Origin: the human T2T-CHM13v2.0 reference genome, Homo sapiens
Assembly (NCBI RefSeq): GCF_009914755.1
Contig: NC_060947.1
Reading direction: 5' to 3' (one strand)
DNA length: 64,000 bases
Shown here piece after piece: positions 1 to 64,000 of the stretch. Position numbers and translations under genes: made by a program. The notes beneath the pieces were generated by a model that saw only the letters and a program-made list of their open reading frames with translations, did no database searches and was not told the DNA's origin. Numbering within the stretch: position 1 is the stretch's first letter; each line of letters starts with the position of its first letter.

Positions 1-18
1 GAGATCCGCCCCACTTAC

Positions 19-250
19 CAGTAATTTACTTTAACGCCTCGAAAGCATGATTTGGTTTACGGAATTGCAGCAAATAAAAGAAAATCAAGTCTCCTTGAGA
101 CACTGTCCTCCTCCTCCCTAGGACGCACATTCACACGGAACACTCTCCTTTCGCTCTCAACCCCGAACACGCTCTGGACTATCCCAAGAGGGTCTTTGGG
201 GACCCGCCAGAGATCGATACTGCTCCCACGTGCCTCCATTAAACCCTTGT
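19..250 (-). other. Candidate non-coding first/5'UTR exon (5' boundary uncertain)
   Basis: Minus strand reads TTACTG|GTAAGT, a consensus donor at 18-13, at the CpG-island edge. The nearest ATG opens only ATG CTT TCG AGG CGT TAA. Confidence 0.45.
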
Positions 251-289
251 CCAAACATGCACAAGGCGCCAAGGGCATGTGCAGTATCA

Positions 290-1400
290 GCCCTCAGAGT
301 AAGTTCAGCAAACCCATTCCCTACCCCCGAAAGCGCGAGGGAGCACCCTGACGCAAGCGCCGGCCCCGGCAGACAATACTCAAGCAACTCCAGCCTTCCG
401 CGCACACGCCCCGACCGGTCCAGCCACCACTCTCTCCTCCCATGGTCCCTACAGTCTTCGGGCCGGGAGCAGGGGGCGTCCTGATGGTTGCTGGGTGTGG
501 ACTGTGAAGAGAAGGGCAACCTGCACACGCCACCGATACTGCGGGGCGGGTAGGAGATCGCAGTTTTCCAAAGCCCCACCGGTGTGCCCAGCTCCTCAGA
601 AGGGGTGGGGTGGGGACAGTGGAACCGAGGGAGTGAACCCTAAGGGAGGCAGCTTTTCTGCACCTCTTTCCCACCTACCACAGCGCGCGCGCAGAAGCGC
701 GCCCACCACGGGGCCGTGCACCTTCCTTCTGCCCCTGGACCTACCCAGCCCTCGCCCCCAAGCGCAGTGGCCTGGAAGAGCGGGCGTCCGGCCCGCGGTG
801 GCCGGGGGAGCCGGCAGAGCGCCGCGCTCGGGGGTGCCCACCTGCGCGCAGGGTCGTCGCTGCTGCCGGTGCACCCGCCGCTGTTGCAGTCTCCAGCTGC
901 AGGAGGAAGAGGCGCGGCGGCTGAGCCCCCGGACTCCACGCGCCTACTCGCGCCCCGGAGCGGTGGTCCTCATTTCCCTTCGTCCCGGCTGGCGAGCCAC
1001 CCACCTCGCCCGCAGGTTCTGCCAGTCCCGCGGCCCGCCAGAGCCCAAGCTATCCTCTCCGCCCCTTTCCCGCCGCCCCGCGCTGCGCTGCGCTCCGCCC
1101 CCTGCCCGCCCATCCCCGCCGGGGCCCAGCCGGGGGCTGCGGGCGCCGCGCCTCGTGCCGCAGATTTCGGGTTCTTGGGTCTGTGGCGGTAGAAAGGGGA
1201 TGGGGGGGACCAGGGGTGCGGCCCTGGGGTCCGCCCCCAACCCCGCTCTCCCAACCGGTTCCCCACTCCTGGGGCCCGCGGCGGCCGCCCGCGGCTAAGG
1301 GTGTGGGAACCGTGCACTCTGCCCCCGCTCTTCCGGCGTCTCCCCGCATGGCACCTTCCGTGGCCCAGAGGGTGCCTCGTGTCTTAGGGGGAGGGGGGTT
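290..1400. promoter_or_regulatory. CpG island / probable promoter of a minus-strand gene
   Basis: Very GC- and CpG-dense sequence that switches to AT-rich DNA after ~1600. CCGCCC GC boxes at 1059, 1073, 1095, 1106 and 1231. No TATA box seen. Confidence 0.9.
842..1000 (-). other. Candidate alternative non-coding first exon (5' boundary uncertain)
   Basis: Minus strand reads GCGCAG|GTGGGC (donor at 841-836), just downstream of the GC-box cluster at 1059-1111. Confidence 0.35.
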
Positions 1401-4375
1401 GGTGAAGCAAGGTGGAGTGAGCCTGAGAGTGGAAGCGAAGAAATTACCATGTGAATTGCCAGGGGATGCAAGTTGCTGCCTGTGCCCTGTTTCTTCTACA
1501 TTAACTACCTGGATGTGCTGCTTCCCTTGCTACAACCGCAGTAATATTCAGAAGCTTGAATATAAGATTTCCAAGTTAATTGGCTGTAGGGTGGTTGGGT
1601 TTTTTTTTTTTTAATGTAATGATGGCAGAAGACAACAGATTCACTCTTTTTAAAAAGTTACTTTACATATATGTACAATATATAAAGCCATATTTCTAAT
1701 TTAAAAAATAGCAAAATGTAAATAACAGAACAGCTGTGTTTTACAGAAACAAATCCAGTGTGTATGTGTTATTTAAACCCACGGTAATTATATTAATTGG
1801 TTCGTTTTAAAGTGTATTTTAGGTATTTCTTAAAACGGACTCAGAATTTAGGGATTAGGAACCCCTGAGTTTTAATTTGGCTTTTTGTCATAGTTCTAAA
1901 ATGTCAATTTCATGGAAATTACTAAATGAGGTTGTTTAGAAAAATGGGTTCTTTTTCTTCCAGGTTGGCAGCATTTTCAGATCTGGCAAAGGACAGAATT
2001 TTTTTTAAAGCCAAGAGATAATAAAATTCTCATTCATTTTCTGATGAGGGAATATCTGGTCTGGTAGCTTTTTCTTTGTTTCTCTCTTTGAGGCAAACTT
2101 CTTTTCTGTTTCTTCTTACACGTTTTTCTTCCAAAATTTCTCCTAAGTATAGGCAAAGTTATGGAAGCCGTGATTTTTGAGCCTTTGTTTTCTTAAAAGA
2201 GATGGAAAATTAATTATAATTCATTATCAATATCTATCCCAGGCTCATGATACTACATTTCACATTGATTAACCCTGTTTTTCAACTCTGCTTTTAGTAA
2301 TTTCACCTACCACTTGAGAACCAAGAGTTTTTTAAGTTTCATCCTTATAAGAATGAAAGGCACACTTTAATTAACATTTTGAACCAAAATTAAATTCATT
2401 AAATTCACTAATGGAAAGTACGTTAGTACAGTATGTGTTGCTGGGTAAATGAGGACAATGTGGATGATAAACAGTTCTGAAGAAAAGACTCTGAAGCAAA
2501 GAAAACAATCCTTAGAAAAACTGATGATCCCCTTTTCAAGGAAAGGATGACAAATGCCAGTAATTATGCAAAGAATGACTCCTGCCTCTCTTTGCTTTGG
2601 TTTTGTGGCTAGGCCTGCATTTATCTCTCTTGATCATCATAATAAAAGTAAAGTAATTCAGCATTCCGGTGACACTGCTTAGTAAATTAGCAATTTGAAA
2701 ATGCTTTTATTACCTAATTAATCCAAGCAAATGCCTTCGATAAATCCAGTTTTACTCTTAACATTTTTTGTGCCTCCAGAGAAACACTTGCATGAAATAA
2801 AAACAGCTAAGGCAAGCTCTAAAACAATTGCTAGCCAGATTCCTTGGGTGTGTGAGTGCAGCAATAGAGTTGATATTAAGTGACCTTTGGGTCTTAAATT
2901 ATATATCAGATATTGGTTCTGAGTTGCTCACTGGCATCTTCTTGAGTGAGTTTCTGTGTGTTTGCTTTGCCGTTTATTCCCCAGAAGCATGCTTCATTTC
3001 TTCCTTTCTGCCTTACTGAATCTACCTTAGTCTAAATTATGTTCATTGAACTCTCACCAAAAAATCAGACCCTAATCCATAGCCCACTTGACAATCATCT
3101 TTGTCCTTCAAGTTTAGTCTCTTTTGAGGTCTTTGGTAAGAATCCAGCATGATTAAACATCCAAAATTGGAAAGAGTACTTCATTAGGCATGGTTCTAAC
3201 TAAGAGATAACAACCAGATTTCTCAAAACAAAAGGGTGTGCCATTTGAATAAAAAGAAGAAAGAAATAAAAACAGCAAATCCATTTTGTTCAGGTCAAAA
3301 CTAAGCCAACAAAATCACAATTGAAATCCTTTCTAAGCCTGAATTGTGCTACGAGATATGTAAAAAGTACAATTAAAATACACTACAAATCCTTTGCTCC
3401 ACTGACCAAACACCATTATGCTTCACATTTCCCTTTTAGTTCCCGTGCTATTGAGTTTTTTTCACTGATCTTTAAATAAGAAAGTGCTCTGGACACTCCC
3501 ATTATCCCCAAGGAATTCTGTGTCACCCTCCATTTGGTTTCAAAAGTTCTCTTGAAATGTCTGTGACATTGATGAGGACAGATCTGAACATCCCATGTAG
3601 ACCTGTGGAAAGGGAGCTCCATGACTAGTCTACATTCAAGACAGTGGGATTAAAACAAAACATGAGTTTTGTTCTAGCAGTTTAATCCAATTGGCATCTC
3701 CCATTCTGATGCTCACTGCAGCGAAAGGTTTTATAATGTGTGTTTTTCCCTCTTGAGAAATTTTCTCTTGATAATTATTTTAATAATTTTTTGTTCGTTT
3801 ACTCTTTGAGTTGTGAGCCTGAACATAATGCACAGTCTTCTCTCTTTTCTTTCCTGTGATAACTGATAATTGATTTAAGGGGAAAAGGGACACAATGAGA
3901 CAACACTTTTGCCAGTTTTTTCTTCTGGCTCTAAGAAAAGCATGAATTAGCTTTCTTTACTTTGGTTGATTGGATTGAGTGGCATCATTGATTCAAATTT
4001 GCAGAATGTCAGTTGCTTTAATTGATCTCCTCGTGTTAGGGAAATACATCACTAGTTATCTCACAAGACAATGAAGATAGAGACAATACTACCCATATAA
4101 TGCTCAGATTGAAATGTTGATGATCTAAGTTACTTAAAAATATGTGTGTGTATATGTGGGTGTGTATATGTATAATTCAAAGCTAAATATAAACCTGATT
4201 ACTTGTAATAGATTCTTCAGTTACAAAACCTTTGGTAAGCTCTCTCATGTTTTTGGAGTATGTGATAAACTGAAGAATACCTCACTACCTTACTCACAGG
4301 AAAGTACTTTTTTTCTGATCCAGATCTCCACATAAATTCCCAACATCAACTATTTAACCGTATCATCTCATGGTT

Positions 4376-4500
4376 AAAAAAAGAAAAAAGAAGAAGATGA
4401 TGATGAAAGAAAAGAAGAAAGAATGAAAGAAAAAGCAGGAAAGAAGAGAGAGAGAGAGAAAGAGGGGGAGGAGGGGGAGGAAGAAAAAGATAAAGAGGAA
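4376..4500. repeat. GA-rich low-complexity tract
   Basis: Almost purine-only runs (GAA, GAGA, GGAG). Confidence 0.9.
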
Positions 4501-4515
4501 CAGAGTAAAGACTGT

Positions 4516-4770
4516 GGCCAAGCACAGTAGCTCACAGCTGTACTTCCAGCACTTTGGGAGGCCGAGGGGGGTGGATCACTTGAGCTCAGGAGTTCGAGAT
4601 CAGCCTGGGCAACATGGCGAAACCCCATATCTACAAAAAAATACAAAAAGCCAGGCGAGGCTGAGGCAGGAGAATCGCATAAACCCGGGAGGCGGAGTTT
4701 TCAGTGAGCGGAGACTGAGCCACCGCACTCCAGCCTGGGTGGTAGAGTGAGATTCTGTCTCAAAAAACAA
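4516..4770 (+). mobile_element. Alu with ~34-bp internal deletion in the right arm
   Basis: Alu consensus. TSD AGAGTAAAGAC(T/A)GT at 4502-4515 and 4771-4784. Deletion junction at 4656/4657. Confidence 0.95.
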
Positions 4771-4951
4771 AGAGTAAAGACAGTATGGTAGGGTGAATAC
4801 GTGTATGACAGGTTAGCACAACTGATAAGCACATCGGGTTAGTAAGATAATGGTTTTCTCTCCCCGTGGACCATTTTGCTTTGTTTTGCTTCATGGCTAT
4901 CAATCAAAGCCCTATTCCTAGACATGAACAAATGTAGTCCTAGTCACCAGA

Positions 4952-5419: not shown

Positions 5420-5520
5420 CCAGGAATTCATCACGAACTTTTAGTGATGCCAGCCCATCATTTTCTGTACCCAACCCAGAGTAAATGTTCAAGTGTAAAG
5501 TGTTTAAGAATGATAAGCAG

Positions 5521-5833
<313 letters not shown>

Positions 5834-5944: not shown

Positions 5945-6269
<325 letters not shown>

Positions 6270-6604
6270 GAGTAACAGAATCTTAACATGTTAAAAGAAT
6301 CTTGGAGATTTTTCTCTTTTTTTGAGATTATGTGATACCTAGGTGGTATGACTTTTAAAAATGCAGGATGGGGTCCTCTGCACATATTGTGCCCCTCAAT
6401 ACTCAATCATGCTCCATTGATTCAATTTCACCTCTAGTTCTTGGCTTGTAATAGCTTCCTCCCTTTAAGCCTTGAAAGCTTTTGGTCTTCAATAGTCCCA
6501 AATTAAAATATAAATGAGTCTGGAAGATTTCCCAGCCTGAACTCAAACCAGTTCTCAACTTGACTGCTTATCAGTACATGGTTGTATTCCCCTATTGTCT
6601 AGTA

Positions 6605-6940
6605 CAGTGGTCCCCAACGTTTTTGGCACCAGGGACGGGTTTTGTGGAAGACAATTTTTCTGCGGACTGGGGGATAGTGGTGGGGGAATGATTTTGCAAT
6701 GAAGCTGTTCCACCTCAGATCATCAGGCATTAGTTAGATTATCATAAGGGGTGCACAACCTGGATCCCTCCCATGCACAGTTCACAACAGGGTTCATGCT
6801 CCTATGGGAATCTAATGCAACTGCTGATCTGACATGAGGCGGAGCTCAGGCGGTAATGCTCGCTTGCCCAAAGCTCACCTCCTGCTGTGCGGCCTTCAAG
6901 GACTGGTACCAGTCCTCAGCCAGGGGTTGGGGACCCCCTG
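6605..6940 (+). mobile_element. MER1B hAT-Charlie DNA transposon
   Basis: TIRs CAGTGGTCCCCAAC and GTTGGGGACCCCCTG. Degenerate 8-bp TSD GTCTAGTA/GTTTAGAA. Internal sequence matches recalled MER1B. Confidence 0.9.
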
Positions 6941-60074: not shown

Positions 60075-61554
60075 TTTTATTGTTTTCTTAAAAGCAAACT
60101 TTTGAAAAACAGTATATAGGGCATCAGAAATGTTAAAGAGTCATGAGATCATTGTCCCTATCAAGTCATTTCCTTTCCTTTGTCTTTTATGTGCTCACAA
60201 AACTTTTTATAAGCCCACAAGACTCTGTGTGTATGTGTATGTATGTGCATGCTTACACAACGGGTTTCACTAAGATACTCTGAATTTTACTTTCAGGAAT
60301 GGTTATATAGGTTACTCTACTGCTTCAAACATCAACTAATTTTATCTGTGTGTGTGGGGAGGGGAGGGTGGTGTCTTCCATTGTGTCCGTGTGGCAAGAC
60401 AAATGGGGGAAAAAGTCCACTTTTCTCTGAAGAGAATCCAGTGTACTATGAGGATAAAAGTAGCATCAATTTTGTCTGTCACACATTGCTACTGCTCAAT
60501 GAGCAGGTGACTATTTATAAAGTGACACTCTGCATTCGCTGCTCAGCATTTGAGGAGTTTCCTGAAAAATCAGGGTTCCTTCCAAACTTTATTCAGGTCA
60601 TTGAAGCTGAGGTTTCAGTGATACTTGAAATCTTTTCTGAGCTGAACAGTATATAGAATCCCCCAACAGAACCATAATAAAGTCTGGAAATTACTTGTGG
60701 CTGGGGTAGAGTTTTCATGAGGGACTTAAAAAGCCTTAAGTGTGTACTTAGCTGGCTATAAGGGAAGCCATGCGCACTCCAGCAAAATAGAGCGATACAC
60801 AATAAAACATTTCATGGCCCACAAACTGTCCCTTACTAATTTGGATAACTGGGGCACAGAGTTTATTTTTGCTCATCTTACTTATTTTTGTTTTGCTGAA
60901 AACCTATGGCGTGCTGAGGCATATCTACCCCACCTTTAGCACTGCTATTTTTCCAGCTTTTTTCATGTTTCTTCCTTCTCAAACTCTTTATTTCTTTGAC
61001 CCCCATGCCAGTGTTCCTGCCATTTCTTTCTTTTCCTATTATCAGTCAATAAATAATTAAATGAATATTAAATTATACTGGCTAAGTATTTACTAATATT
61101 TCCTAACTTACACGGATAGGGAACAAGAAAGCACGACATATAGTCCCTGAGCATAAATTTCAAATTTTTGCTACTAGGTACAGACTCCTTTTTCAATCCC
61201 CATGAAGTTTGCCTTTCTGAAGATTGTAATTATTAGTAAAAGCATCAGCCAGTAGCCTGCCTGGAGCAACCCTGCAAGGTAAAAATGCTGCAAGGGCTGA
61301 GTCTGGTGACAGACAGTGGAGAAGGACATGGAGGGCCACAGAGGGCATAGGATTGCGTTCCCAGAAGGAAGTTCTGGAATCAGGAATAGAAGCACAGAAG
61401 GTCATTCCGAAATGAAGGAAGCATTTTCCTCTGTTCACAGCTGAAAATGGAATAGAAAGCTAGAGAATTTACAAAGATAGATAGAGTTAGATATTTAGCT
61501 ATTATGGTTTAGGCAATAAAATGGAGGAAAGGGACTTAGATTTATGGAAACCAT

Positions 61555-61750
61555 ATAGTGTACTAGGCATTTAACTACGTGCTTTATGTACATGATCTCA
61601 TTTAACCCTTTTAACAATCCTGTGGGCTAGCTATTACTCTTGCCATTTCATATTTAAGAAACTCATCCAAAGTCATACAGTTAGAAAATGGTAATGTCAG
61701 GATATGCATCAAGGTCTTTCTGACTGCAGAGCCCACGCACTTCCCATCCT
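61555..61750 (-). mobile_element. MIR
   Basis: ATCTCATTTAACC...AACAATCCTGTG...CCAAAGTCATACAG...TCTGACTGCAGAGCCC. Confidence 0.75.
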
Positions 61751-62267
61751 ATCTTGCAGATGGCCCAGTTTGAGACTGATGGGAACGCGCTGTAGGTATT
61801 TATGTCTACCTTGCAAGCCAGAGACTGTGCTATTACATCAACTTGCATGTCATCTGTCAGAGAAGTTTTGTGTGTGCGTGAATGTTTTATTGTTATTATT
61901 ATTGTTGCTCTGATTCTGGAGGTAAATGTCTTTAGAATTTCAAATAACGCATGACTCATTTCCTGATATACACTGTCACCACGATTTCTTTTATGAAAGT
62001 ATTGAATGCAGGCTCTGGAAATAAGAAAGGCTTTCTACACATGCACTGTAGAATAATGCTTAAGCTCAAAAGAAAGAAAAAAAAAGAAAGGTGACCTTAT
62101 TAACCCTTTCTGCATAAAATTCCTGCAAACTGTCAGCATCCCACAAGATTCCACCCACCTGGCAAATCCTAGTGCCATACTTTGAACAAAGACATCTACC
62201 ACAATAATATTTCAGGCAGCTACTGAAACCATCTTTGGGATACAGGGCTTTCTTGACCAGCTCTGTA

Positions 62268-64000
62268 CAGTTGACCCTTGAACAACATGGATTGAACTGT
62301 GGGCGTCCACTTATATGTGGATTGAAAATATAGTATTTAGGTGTGGGGGCTGGGGGTCATATGACTCAGGTGTCCCCGGGCCCTGCTGCCTTCACAGCCT
62401 GGGGCAGCCATGGGATGCCAGAGTGTGGGGATTGGTGGCCAGTGGGTCTGAGGCTGTGTCTACTGAGGCTAAGATGACTGCCTTTCTTGACTGGCCTTGA
62501 CTTTTCCATACATTGTGTGACTCTTGCCCCATGGCCCTTTGGCTGACCTTACCGGAAGCCATGATGACAGCGGCCTTTTGCCATTAGATGCAGGGAGATG
62601 GTGGTGGAAGTGGATACAGCAGTCAGAGAACATCTGGCAGAGACAAATATGGACCACCTGTTCATACAGAATACGAGCTTATTATAGAAAGTCTTTCTAG
62701 TTGTTACAGTTGGCAAGATTTAAAGGATTTTATGCAACAAGCAGATGAAGTAACCTATGTTGATGCTCACAAGGAATGCACAAGTGAGGGCGTTGAGTTT
62801 CACTCCTATTTTGACATGAAGCTTGCTTTGGACAAACTGGATGGTGCAGAAATATTAGGCTTATTGAAGGTAAGCCAGGCACAAGCCATAGGCGATCTGA
62901 TTCTGGAAGCAGATCCAGGTATAGATCTAGAAGATGGTCACGAAGTAGGAGTCGCAGGAGCAGCCACAGTAGATCTCGAAGTATCTCAAAAAGTCACTCC
63001 TGATCAGGTTGCGGAGCAAAGGTCGATCACGTTCTCGTTCAAAAGGCAGGAAATCTAGCTCAAGGAGCAAATCTATGCCCAAATCTGATCTGGGCTCCTG
63101 TTCTTGTTCTCAAAGCAGATCTAAGGATGAGTATGAGAAATCTCCAAGCAGGTCTCTGTCCCGATCTTCCAAAGAAAATGGAAAAGGTGATATGAAGTCA
63201 AAATACAGATCAAGGAGCCAGTCTCGTTCCAATTCACCCCTACCTGCTCCACCCTCAAAGGGTCATTCTGTGTCCCCTCCGCCAAAAAGAGCTACTTCAA
63301 GATCCCGTTCTAGATCCCATTCAAAATAAAGATCAGGGTGCAGGTTGAGTTCCAGAGATTAATCCAGAACTCTTCATTCATTGCGCACTATTATGGAACA
63401 CTTTTCTACTTGCTTAGGCAGTTGTTCTTCCATGTTTATACTTGGCTTCTTTTGCAAGAGGAATCTCCTGAAAACAGGGGCACACAGAAATTTGATTTGT
63501 GGCCAAATTTGATGAAAAAGATGAGGCTCTAAGGAAATGGTGGCATAAAGTCAAAGACCCTCTCCCTTCTTTGTAGAATTAAGATAACTTCAATTTTATA
63601 GCTTTTGAGCTAAAATAACTTTTGTAAAGATTAAGCTCATTTAGATGTTTTTAAAAGTATTTCAGCAGGATCTGCTGCAGGGTTTGTTGTTGTTGTTGTT
63701 GTGTTACTTGTTTGCTTATTTTAAAATTAACCGTTTCAAGCTTTGAATACTTAAGGCTTTAGAGGGACAACCCAATTTTCAATTACATTTGCTTTTTATA
63801 AAGCTTGAGTTATGTAAGCTTTAAATAAAAGTTTGCTACCAAAAAAAAAAAAAGAAAATACAGTATTCACAAGATGTGAAACCCAAGTATAGGGAGGGCC
63901 AACTTCTCATATACGTGGGTTCTGTAGGGCTGACTGTGGGACTTGAGTATATGTGAATTTGGGTATACCCCAGGGACCTTGAACAAATCCCCTGCATGTA
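62268..64000 (+). mobile_element. MER8 (Tigger2-derived MITE) split by the pseudogene (62268-62337 and 63854-64000)
   Basis: Starts CAGTTGACCCTTGAACAAC and resumes GAAAATACAGTATTC...GGAGGGCCAACTT...GGGACTTGAGTAT. Confidence 0.88.
62338..63853 (+). pseudogene. SRSF6: 5'-truncated processed pseudogene of SRSF6 (SRp55), including poison-exon sequence
   Basis: Intronless [20 protein letters not shown]...SWQDLKD (RRM2) and RS domain ending at TAA 63360-63362. Frameshift near 62848 and internal stops. AATAAA at 63824-63829, poly-A at 63841-63853, TSD GAAAATA(T/C)AGTATT at 62324-62337 and 63854-63867. Confidence 0.96.

What the first reader, a model, noticed from the sequence alone, without database searches (positions are those of the whole stretch)
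62436..62600. SRSF6 retrocopy preserves the ultraconserved poison exon (fossil of an NMD-type isoform)
Seen: the ~165 nt before the coding block at 62601 translate as SEAVSTEAKMTAFLDWP*LFHTLCDSCPMALWLTLPEAMMTAAFCH*, with TAG at 62585-62587. Established: this matches the recalled C-terminus of the truncated SRp55-2 isoform, encoded by the ultraconserved, PTC-containing poison exon used for SRSF6 autoregulation. Inference: L1 machinery copied a poison-exon-containing mRNA in the germ line. The copy is also a neutrally decaying duplicate of an ultraconserved element, useful as a control for its mutation rate.
Basis: partly seen in the sequence, partly recalled or inferred. Interest (0 to 1): 0.8.

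Follow-up and report, generated by a model that had tools for sequence, protein, structure and literature searches.

The report
SRSF6 pseudogene carrying a poison-exon copy
An old, dead retrocopy of the splicing-factor gene SRSF6 on the X chromosome carries a decayed copy of the first 165 bases of that gene's ultraconserved poison exon, a tidy but ordinary fossil of an unproductive transcript.

Summary
Window 62436-62600 aligns without gaps to 165 nt inside SRSF6 intron 2 on chr20, with 151 of 165 bases identical (E 3.7e-60 genome-wide). The parental stretch is flanked by AG and GT. Published RT-PCR primers and product sizes (498/230 bp) place the 268-nt SRSF6 poison cassette exon at the same acceptor. 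The copy therefore holds poison-exon nt 1-165, including the TAG (62585-62587). It is joined to exon 3 through an internal GTGAGG donor, not the published donor. The paralogous SRSF4 poison exon also matches.

The retrocopy spans 62340-63853. It has precise intron loss, AATAAA, a 13-A tail and a 16-nt target-site duplication, confirmed against an uninterrupted relative of the host repeat.

Upstream of the poison exon lies not exon 2 but 96 nt from deeper in intron 2, spliced on through a GT-AG intron. The source RNA was therefore a non-canonical unproductive transcript. It either started inside intron 2 or was 5'-truncated after use of an alternative exon-2 donor.

The poison-exon copy has diverged 8.5%, against 8.9% for exons 3-6 (Fisher p = 1.0), consistent with neutral decay.

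It is a new member of a known kind and of modest interest.

The parts
62324..62339 (.). Left copy of the 16-nt target-site duplication
   Evidence: 14 of 16 bases identical to 63854-63869. An uninterrupted relative of the host repeat (L017, chr6) holds this stretch once.
62340..62435 (+). Piece A: 96-nt copy of SRSF6 intron-2 sequence (L014 4861-4959 = chr20:45191861-45191959). It lies 83-181 nt past the exon-2 donor and forms the 5' end of the retrocopy.
   Evidence: 80 of 96 aligned bases identical, with one 3-nt gap. Ten of the 16 differences are CpG transitions. In the parent it is followed by GT (GG|GTTTGG) and joined exactly to the poison-exon acceptor.
62436..62600 (+). Copy of nt 1-165 of the 268-nt SRSF6 poison cassette exon (L014 5422-5586 = chr20:45192422-45192586)
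   Evidence: 151 of 165 bases identical with no gaps. The parent is flanked by AG and GTGAGG. The acceptor is that of the exon defined by the published primers and product sizes. The SRSF4 paralog matches.
62498..62500 (+). New TGA in the poison-exon frame, created in the copy
   Evidence: G to A at 62500, where the parent has TGG (difference list).
62585..62587 (+). Copy of the poison exon's premature TAG
   Evidence: In the parent, the TAG at L014 5571-5573 ends the reading frame after 135 aa. The same TAG is kept in the SRSF4 alignment.
62601..62725 (+). Copy of constitutive exon 3 (L014 6040-6164)
   Evidence: 114 of 125 bases identical.
62726..62918 (+). Copy of exon 4 (L014 6302-6510), with 16 bases of gaps
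   Evidence: 175 of 193 aligned bases identical.
62919..63002 (+). Copy of exon 5 (L014 6784-6867)
   Evidence: 78 of 84 bases identical.
63003..63840 (+). Copy of the last exon (RS-domain coding part and 3'UTR up to a proximal poly(A) site, L014 6972-7811). AATAAA lies at 63824-63829.
   Evidence: 742 of 815 aligned bases identical, with 8 gap events. The poly(A) signal and cleavage site are shown. The coding frame is broken into at least three pieces.
63841..63853 (+). Poly(A) tail of 13 A
   Evidence: The parent genome reads AAGATG here.
63854..63869 (.). Right copy of the target-site duplication

Best explanation
Window 62340-63853 is an L1-type processed pseudogene (SRSF6P1). It was made in the germ line from an unproductive SRSF6 transcript. 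The template consisted of a 99-nt piece of intron 2, the first 165 nt of the poison cassette exon, constitutive exons 3 to 6, and a proximal poly(A) site. The two intron-2 pieces were joined by removal of a GT-AG intron ending at the known poison-exon acceptor. The poison exon was joined to exon 3 from an internal GTGAGG donor 103 nt upstream of the published donor. Since insertion the whole copy, including the part that is ultraconserved in the parent gene, has decayed at one uniform rate of about 9%. It has no sign of function. My preferred reading, by inference only at about 60:40, is that the template RNA started inside intron 2. With no strong exon-2 donor on that RNA, the weak GTTTGG donor would have been the one used.
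For: Exon map. Searches give six collinear blocks on chr20. One search gives the base-level alignment, with junctions exactly at parental splice sites.

Splice signals. They are AG|TGACC (acceptor), ATG|GTGAGG (internal donor), GAT|GTAAGT (published donor) and TGG|GTTTGG (piece A donor).

Identity of the poison exon. Mapped on the locus, primers hSRSF6_exon2_fw and exon3_rev from PMC9881134 Supplementary Table S1 predict 230 bp without the exon and 498 bp with L014 5422-5689. These are the published sizes. One of that paper's two guides aimed at the exon's 3' splice site, sgRNA B2, lies at L014 5580-5599. SRSF4 intron 2 aligns at 74% over 204 columns and keeps the TAG. This matches the homologous SRSF4/SRSF6 poison exon, ultraconserved in SRSF6, described in PMC4379411 (passages).

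Reading frame. The protein is 135 aa with the exon and 344 aa without it.

Retroposition. There is a 13-A tail after AATAAA. A 16-nt duplication is present once in an uninterrupted relative of the host repeat.

Uniform decay. Differences are 14 of 165 in the poison-exon copy against 108 of 1217 in exons 3-6 (Fisher p = 1.0). At non-CpG sites the figures are 12 of 159 against 89 of 1143.

Loss of coding capacity. The coding frame is broken.
Against: The internal donor and the piece-A donor were not found in any transcript annotation available to me. One preprint states that only two SRSF6 transcripts are annotated, with the exon in or out (PMC13307980, passage). The published RT-PCR table lists only 498 and 230 bp, not the 395 bp expected for the short form.

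The piece-A donor GTTTGG is weak.

Whether the 5' end at 62340 is a transcription start or an L1 reverse-transcription truncation cannot be told from sequence.

No other primate or mammal genome was available. The age was therefore not tested, nor the assumption that nearly all differences arose in the copy.
Confidence: 0.9

Rival explanations
1. The retrocopy is the same, but the template RNA began at the normal promoter. Exon 2 was extended 181 nt by use of the downstream GTTTGG donor, and L1 reverse transcription stopped early inside that extension.
For: 5' truncation is common in L1-mediated copies (general knowledge). Piece A lies only 83-181 nt past the exon-2 donor. No promoter evidence was obtainable.
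Against: It needs a weak donor (TGG|GTTTGG) to win over the strong exon-2 donor (GCA|GTGAGT) on the same RNA. It also needs truncation to fall within a 181-nt stretch of a roughly 2-kb RNA.
Confidence: 0.35
2. The full 268-nt poison exon was retrocopied, and 103 nt were later deleted from the pseudogene.
For: The pseudogene has other deletions: 16 gap bases in exon 4 and 49 in the last exon.
Against: The breakpoint would have to fall exactly between poison-exon nt 165 and exon-3 nt 1, at a GT that reads GTGAGG in the parent. This motif is also conserved in SRSF4.
Confidence: 0.03
3. The copy of the poison exon is under selection or has been put to use, for example as an SR-protein-binding RNA or an exapted exon, and is not decaying neutrally.
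For: None found. C to T at 62589 happens to create an ATG just after the TAG, opening a 156-aa frame at 62588-63058.
Against: Divergence equals that of the rest of the pseudogene. If the poison-exon copy mutated or fixed changes at half the rate of the rest, 14 or more differences would have probability 0.016. There is an extra stop in the poison-exon frame and frameshifts in the coding part. No Rfam family reaches its gathering score: 0 of 2 weak matches.
Confidence: 0.03
4. The locus arose by DNA-level duplication or gene conversion from SRSF6, not by retroposition.
For: None.
Against: Five introns are removed precisely at splice sites. There is a poly(A) tail at a poly(A) site and a target-site duplication.
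Confidence: 0.01

Closest known systems
SRSF6 poison cassette exon ('exon 3', PCE; isoform NR_034009 as named in PMC8669609)
   Same: It uses the same acceptor and has the same sequence (92% identity). It has the same in-frame TAG and the same position between exon 2 and the next constitutive exon.
   Different: Only nt 1-165 of 268 are present, through an internal donor. Its upstream partner is an intron-2 piece, not exon 2. The copy is not conserved and has 14 substitutions.
Processed pseudogenes as fossils of splice variants (Shemesh et al. 2006, PNAS; seen only in reference lists, content recalled)
   Same: A retrocopy records an alternative, unproductive splice form of its parent gene.
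   Different: The recorded exon is an ultraconserved poison exon. The form combines two donors that I could not find annotated.
SRSF6 retrocopy on chr17 (G000:C17:16518613-16519869, locus L006)
   Same: It has the same parent gene and is also intronless.
   Different: It is younger, at 95-99% identity per exon. It is full length from exon 1. Exon 2 is joined directly to exon 3, so it has no poison exon. It uses a more distal poly(A) site.
SRSF4 intron-2 poison exon (paralog, chr1)
   Same: The sequence is homologous, with 150 of 204 alignment columns identical. The TAG and the GTGAGGAT motif are kept. The homology is stated in PMC4379411.
   Different: It is an ancient gene duplicate that stays in its intron, not a retrocopy.

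Membership tests
L1-mediated processed pseudogene | Parental introns removed exactly at splice junctions | tested here: met
   Five junctions fall at parental GT/AG sites.
L1-mediated processed pseudogene | Poly(A) tail downstream of a poly(A) signal and absent from the parent genome | tested here: met
   AATAAA lies at 63824-63829 and 13 A at 63841-63853. The parent reads AAGATG there.
L1-mediated processed pseudogene | Target-site duplication flanking the insert | tested here: met
   The duplication is 16 nt, with 14 of 16 bases identical. It is single in an uninterrupted relative of the host repeat.
L1-mediated processed pseudogene | A-rich target resembling the L1 endonuclease site | tested here: inconclusive
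   The target reads GATT|GAAAAT. It resembles the recalled TT|AAAA consensus, but no statistical test was made.
SRSF6 poison cassette exon | Lies in intron 2 and uses the published acceptor | tested here: met
   Published primers and product sizes place the 268-nt exon at L014 5422-5689. The copy starts at 5422.
SRSF6 poison cassette exon | In-frame premature stop when read from exon 2 | tested here: met
   The parent gives 135 aa with the exon and 344 aa without it. The TAG is kept at 62585-62587.
SRSF6 poison cassette exon | Full 268-nt exon ending at the GTAAGT donor | tested here: not met
   The copy ends at nt 165, at an internal GTGAGG donor. Nt 166-268 are absent.
SRSF6 poison cassette exon | Homology to the SRSF4 intron-2 poison exon | tested here: met
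   and the literature statement.
SRSF6 poison cassette exon | Ultraconservation of the parental exon among mammals | not testable with these tools
   No other vertebrate genome is held. The claim is taken from PMC4379411, PMC9881134 and PMC3064809 (passages).
SRp55-2 / NR_034009-type mRNA (exon 2 - poison exon - exon 3) | Exon 2 spliced to the poison exon | tested here: not met
   The 96 nt upstream of the poison-exon copy align to intron 2 (L014 4861-4959), not to exon 2 (4630-4778).

The most novel reading that the evidence does not exclude
The pseudogene may be the only record of a class of SRSF6 RNAs that start at an internal promoter in the CpG-rich 5' part of intron 2. Such RNAs would splice from a cap-proximal weak donor into the poison exon and leave it at an internal donor, giving a 165-nt, frame-preserving short form. 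They would carry the ultraconserved SR-protein-binding exon without the RRM1 coding exons. They could therefore act as non-coding regulators or decoys and not as simple NMD substrates. Conservation of the GTGAGGAT donor motif in SRSF4 would then reflect use of this site.
Probability: 0.15. Interest if true: 0.5.

Novelty: new member of a known kind. Interest (0 to 1): 0.3.

Why it matters
The pseudogene is a natural control. The same 165 bases that are ultraconserved in their native intron (from the literature) have picked up 14 substitutions here. That is the same rate as the neighbouring pseudogene sequence. It argues that ultraconservation of this exon reflects selection in place and not low mutability. 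This conclusion is already accepted on other grounds, and the test here has limited power: it excludes a two-fold lower rate only at p about 0.016.

The copy also shows that poison-exon-containing SRSF6 RNA was present in the germ line tens of millions of years ago. It points to two splice donors worth looking for in long-read data.

The RefSeq pseudogene annotation (62601-63550) misses 261 nt at the 5' end and about 300 nt at the 3' end.

Tried and rejected

Four papers were not held, so several points rest on recollection or reference lists. They are Screaton 1995, Leclair 2020 and Shemesh 2006. The affected points are the SRp55-2 name, the 135-aa figure and the content of the 'genomic fossils' paper.

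Literature searches gave little. 'SRSF6P1' found 0 papers. 'SFRS6P1', 'SRSF6 pseudogene', 'SFRS6 pseudogene' and 'SRp55 pseudogene' together found 0 papers. 'Processed pseudogene' with 'poison exon' found 11 papers, 9 listed, and none was about a retrocopied poison exon by title or abstract. 'SRp55-2' found 1 unrelated paper. The mentions of 'ultraconserved' in Baertsch 2008 are only in its reference list.

My first segment-wise alignment had wrong end-gap settings and was discarded in favour.

My first retrocopy start, 62341, was corrected to 62340.

My first attempt to translate from exon 1 used a wrong exon-2 start and returned nothing. It was corrected.

The Rfam scan of 61500-64000 gave only two chance-level matches far below gathering scores.

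Full report
**What is in the sequence**

The window is T2T-CHM13 chrX:45260001-45324000, and the whole assembly could be searched. One search lists an open stretch ending ...SGSEAVSTEAKMTAFLDWP, with a stop at 62498-62500. It is followed by LFHTLCDSCPMALWLTLPEAMMTAAFCH up to the TAG at 62585-62587.

**Where it comes from**

A genome-wide DNA search with 62341-62600 gave four matches:
- the window itself;
- chr20:45192421-45192586, at 92% identity and E 3.7e-60;
- chr20:45191868-45191959, at 83% identity;
- chr1:29002575-29002708 on the minus strand, at 73% identity.

A search with the whole retrocopy added four more collinear chr20 blocks and a second retrocopy on chr17.

I fetched chr20:45187001-45197000 as L014. 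I used the chr17 retrocopy, which is full length and 95-99% identical per exon, to define the canonical exons. Splice signals refined the boundaries. In L014 coordinates the exons are:
- exon 1 to 4409;
- exon 2 at 4630-4778;
- exon 3 at 6040-6164;
- exon 4 at 6302-6510;
- exon 5 at 6784-6867;
- the last exon from 6972.

Joined in silico, these exons give a 344-aa protein. A review of SRSF6 states the same length (PMC8669609, passage).

**Identity of 62436-62600**

This block aligns end to end to L014 5422-5586, with 151 of 165 bases identical and no gap. In the parent the block is preceded by AG and followed by GTGAGG.

To test whether this is the published poison exon, I took the primers of de Oliveira Freitas Machado et al. 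2023 (PMC9881134, Supplementary Table S1) and mapped them on L014. Exon skipping predicts 230 bp. Inclusion of 5422-5689, which is 268 nt and ends at GAT|GTAAGT, predicts 498 bp. These are exactly the published sizes. One of that paper's two guides for deleting the exon's 3' splice site, sgRNA B2, sits at 5580-5599.

The block is therefore nt 1-165 of the 268-nt poison cassette exon, with the same acceptor.

Read from exon 2, the exon stops translation after 135 aa in both the 165-nt and the 268-nt form. I recall 135 aa as the database length of isoform SRp55-2, but I could not check this because Screaton 1995 is not held.

The chr1 match is SRSF4 intron 2. A direct alignment gives 150 of 204 columns identical and keeps both the TAG and the GTGAGGAT motif. 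Lareau & Brenner 2015 state that SRSF4 and SRSF6 share a homologous poison cassette exon in intron 2, ultraconserved in SRSF6 (PMC4379411, passages). Two further papers call the SRSF6 exon ultraconserved or place it inside an ultraconserved cDNA segment (PMC9881134; PMC3064809).

A search of the genome with the full 268-nt exon found three places only: the parent, this retrocopy (nt 1-168) and SRSF4. The tool notes that such counts are lower bounds.

**The retrocopy as a whole**

The boundaries are 62340 and 63853. A 16-nt stretch at 62324-62339 recurs at 63854-63869, with 14 of 16 bases identical.

The flanks belong to an interspersed repeat, for which the first look found 464 candidates and scored 40. 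An uninterrupted relative on chr6 (L017) runs straight from the left flank into the right flank and holds the 16-nt stretch once. That is the signature of a target-site duplication.

The 3' end has AATAAA at 63824-63829 and 13 A, where the parent genome reads AAGATG. The chr17 copy used a more distal site.

RefSeq annotates only 62601-63550.

**The unexpected 5' part**

Upstream of the poison exon there is no exon 2. Instead, 62340-62435 (96 nt) aligns to L014 4861-4959, with 80 of 96 bases identical and one 3-nt gap. This lies in intron 2, 83-181 nt past the exon-2 donor. Ten of the 16 differences are CpG transitions in a stretch with 12 CpGs. At non-CpG sites its divergence (6 of 71) does not differ from the rest.

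In the parent this piece is followed by GT (TGG|GTTTGG), and the next retrocopy base is the first base of the poison exon. A canonical GT-AG intron (L014 4960-5421) was therefore spliced out.

The template was thus not the standard exon1-exon2-poison exon-exon3 RNA. Two readings remain.

- The RNA started inside intron 2. I prefer this at about 60:40. On such an RNA the weak GTTTGG donor would have no strong competitor, whereas on a normal pre-mRNA the strong exon-2 donor lies 181 nt upstream.
- The RNA had an extended exon 2, and reverse transcription was truncated.

This preference is inference, not a result.

On the template as reconstructed from the parent, the ATGs within the first 300 nt open frames of only 8 to 37 aa. 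The RNA was therefore unproductive in either case.

**Short form of the poison exon**

The copy passes from poison-exon nt 165 directly to exon-3 nt 1, at a parental ATG|GTGAGG. A later 103-nt deletion hitting exactly this point is very unlikely.

The published RT-PCR table lists no 395-bp product. One preprint says only two SRSF6 transcripts are annotated (PMC13307980, passage). I could not consult GENCODE.

**Decay**

Differences from the parent:

| Segment | Differences | Percent |
|---|---|---|
| Piece A | 16 of 96 | 16.7 |
| Poison-exon copy | 14 of 165 | 8.5 |
| Exon 3 | 11 of 125 | 8.8 |
| Exon 4 | 18 of 193 | 9.3 |
| Exon 5 | 6 of 84 | 7.1 |
| Last exon | 73 of 815 | 9.0 |

The 14 poison-exon differences are 2 CpG transitions, 10 other transitions and 2 transversions.

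The poison exon against exons 3-6 is 14 of 165 versus 108 of 1217, Fisher p = 1.0. At non-CpG sites it is 12 of 159 versus 89 of 1143, p = 1.0. If the poison-exon copy changed at half the rate of the rest, 14 or more differences would have probability 0.016.

The copy of the ultraconserved exon therefore behaves like the rest of the pseudogene. The caveat is that I assumed the parent is nearly unchanged since the copy was made. That is reasonable for an ultraconserved exon and conserved coding exons, but less so for the 3'UTR.

The Jukes-Cantor distance is 0.10 over all sites and 0.082 at non-CpG sites. With assumed rates of 1.0-2.2e-9 per site per year, this gives roughly 37-100 My. The age was not tested against other genomes.

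The coding part is dead. The frame is split among three reading frames, and there are 16 gap bases in exon 4 and 49 in the last exon.

**Other strand and RNA families**

The minus strand has only short chance frames. Rfam gave two weak matches far below their gathering scores.

**Comparison and novelty**

The phenomenon of processed pseudogenes preserving alternative splice forms is known. Shemesh et al. 2006 covers it, though I saw that paper only in reference lists and recall its content.

I found no paper that names this pseudogene or a retrocopied SR-gene poison exon, within the limits of the held library:
- 0 papers for 'SRSF6P1';
- 0 papers for the four pseudogene name variants;
- 11 papers for 'processed pseudogene' with 'poison exon', 9 listed, none on this topic by title or abstract.

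It is a new member of a known kind.

**Verdict**

Interest is modest. It is a neat natural control and gives a pointer to two unannotated donors, but it does not overturn current views.

Noticed in passing
window 62588-63058: A CpG transition (C to T at 62589, where the parent has ACG) creates an ATG immediately after the poison-exon TAG. It opens a 156-aa frame through the decayed RRM2 copy until a frameshift. It is most likely chance.
   Followed up: partly
G000:C17:16518613-16519869 (locus L006): A second, younger SRSF6 retrocopy lies on chr17. It is 95-99% identical to the parent per exon and full length from exon 1. Exon 2 is joined directly to exon 3, so it has no poison exon, and it uses a more distal poly(A) site.
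   Followed up: partly
window 62266-62339 and 63854-63992: The retrocopy sits inside an older interspersed repeat. The first look found 464 candidate copies in the genome and scored 40. I did not identify the repeat family.
   Followed up: partly
L014 5571-5600 and L004 (SRSF4), alignment: The internal donor motif GTGAGGAT and the following CCAAGGGTTAGACA are conserved between the SRSF6 and SRSF4 poison exons. This suggests that the site used by the retrocopied RNA lies in a functionally constrained part of the exon.
   Followed up: no
window 62601-63550 (RefSeq SRSF6P1 span): The annotated pseudogene span omits 261 nt at the 5' end (the intron-2 piece and the poison exon). It also omits about 300 nt of 3'UTR, the poly(A) tail and the duplications.
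   Followed up: yes
window 63683-63706: A short (GTT)n run lies in the 3'UTR copy. I did not compare it in detail with the parent.
   Followed up: no
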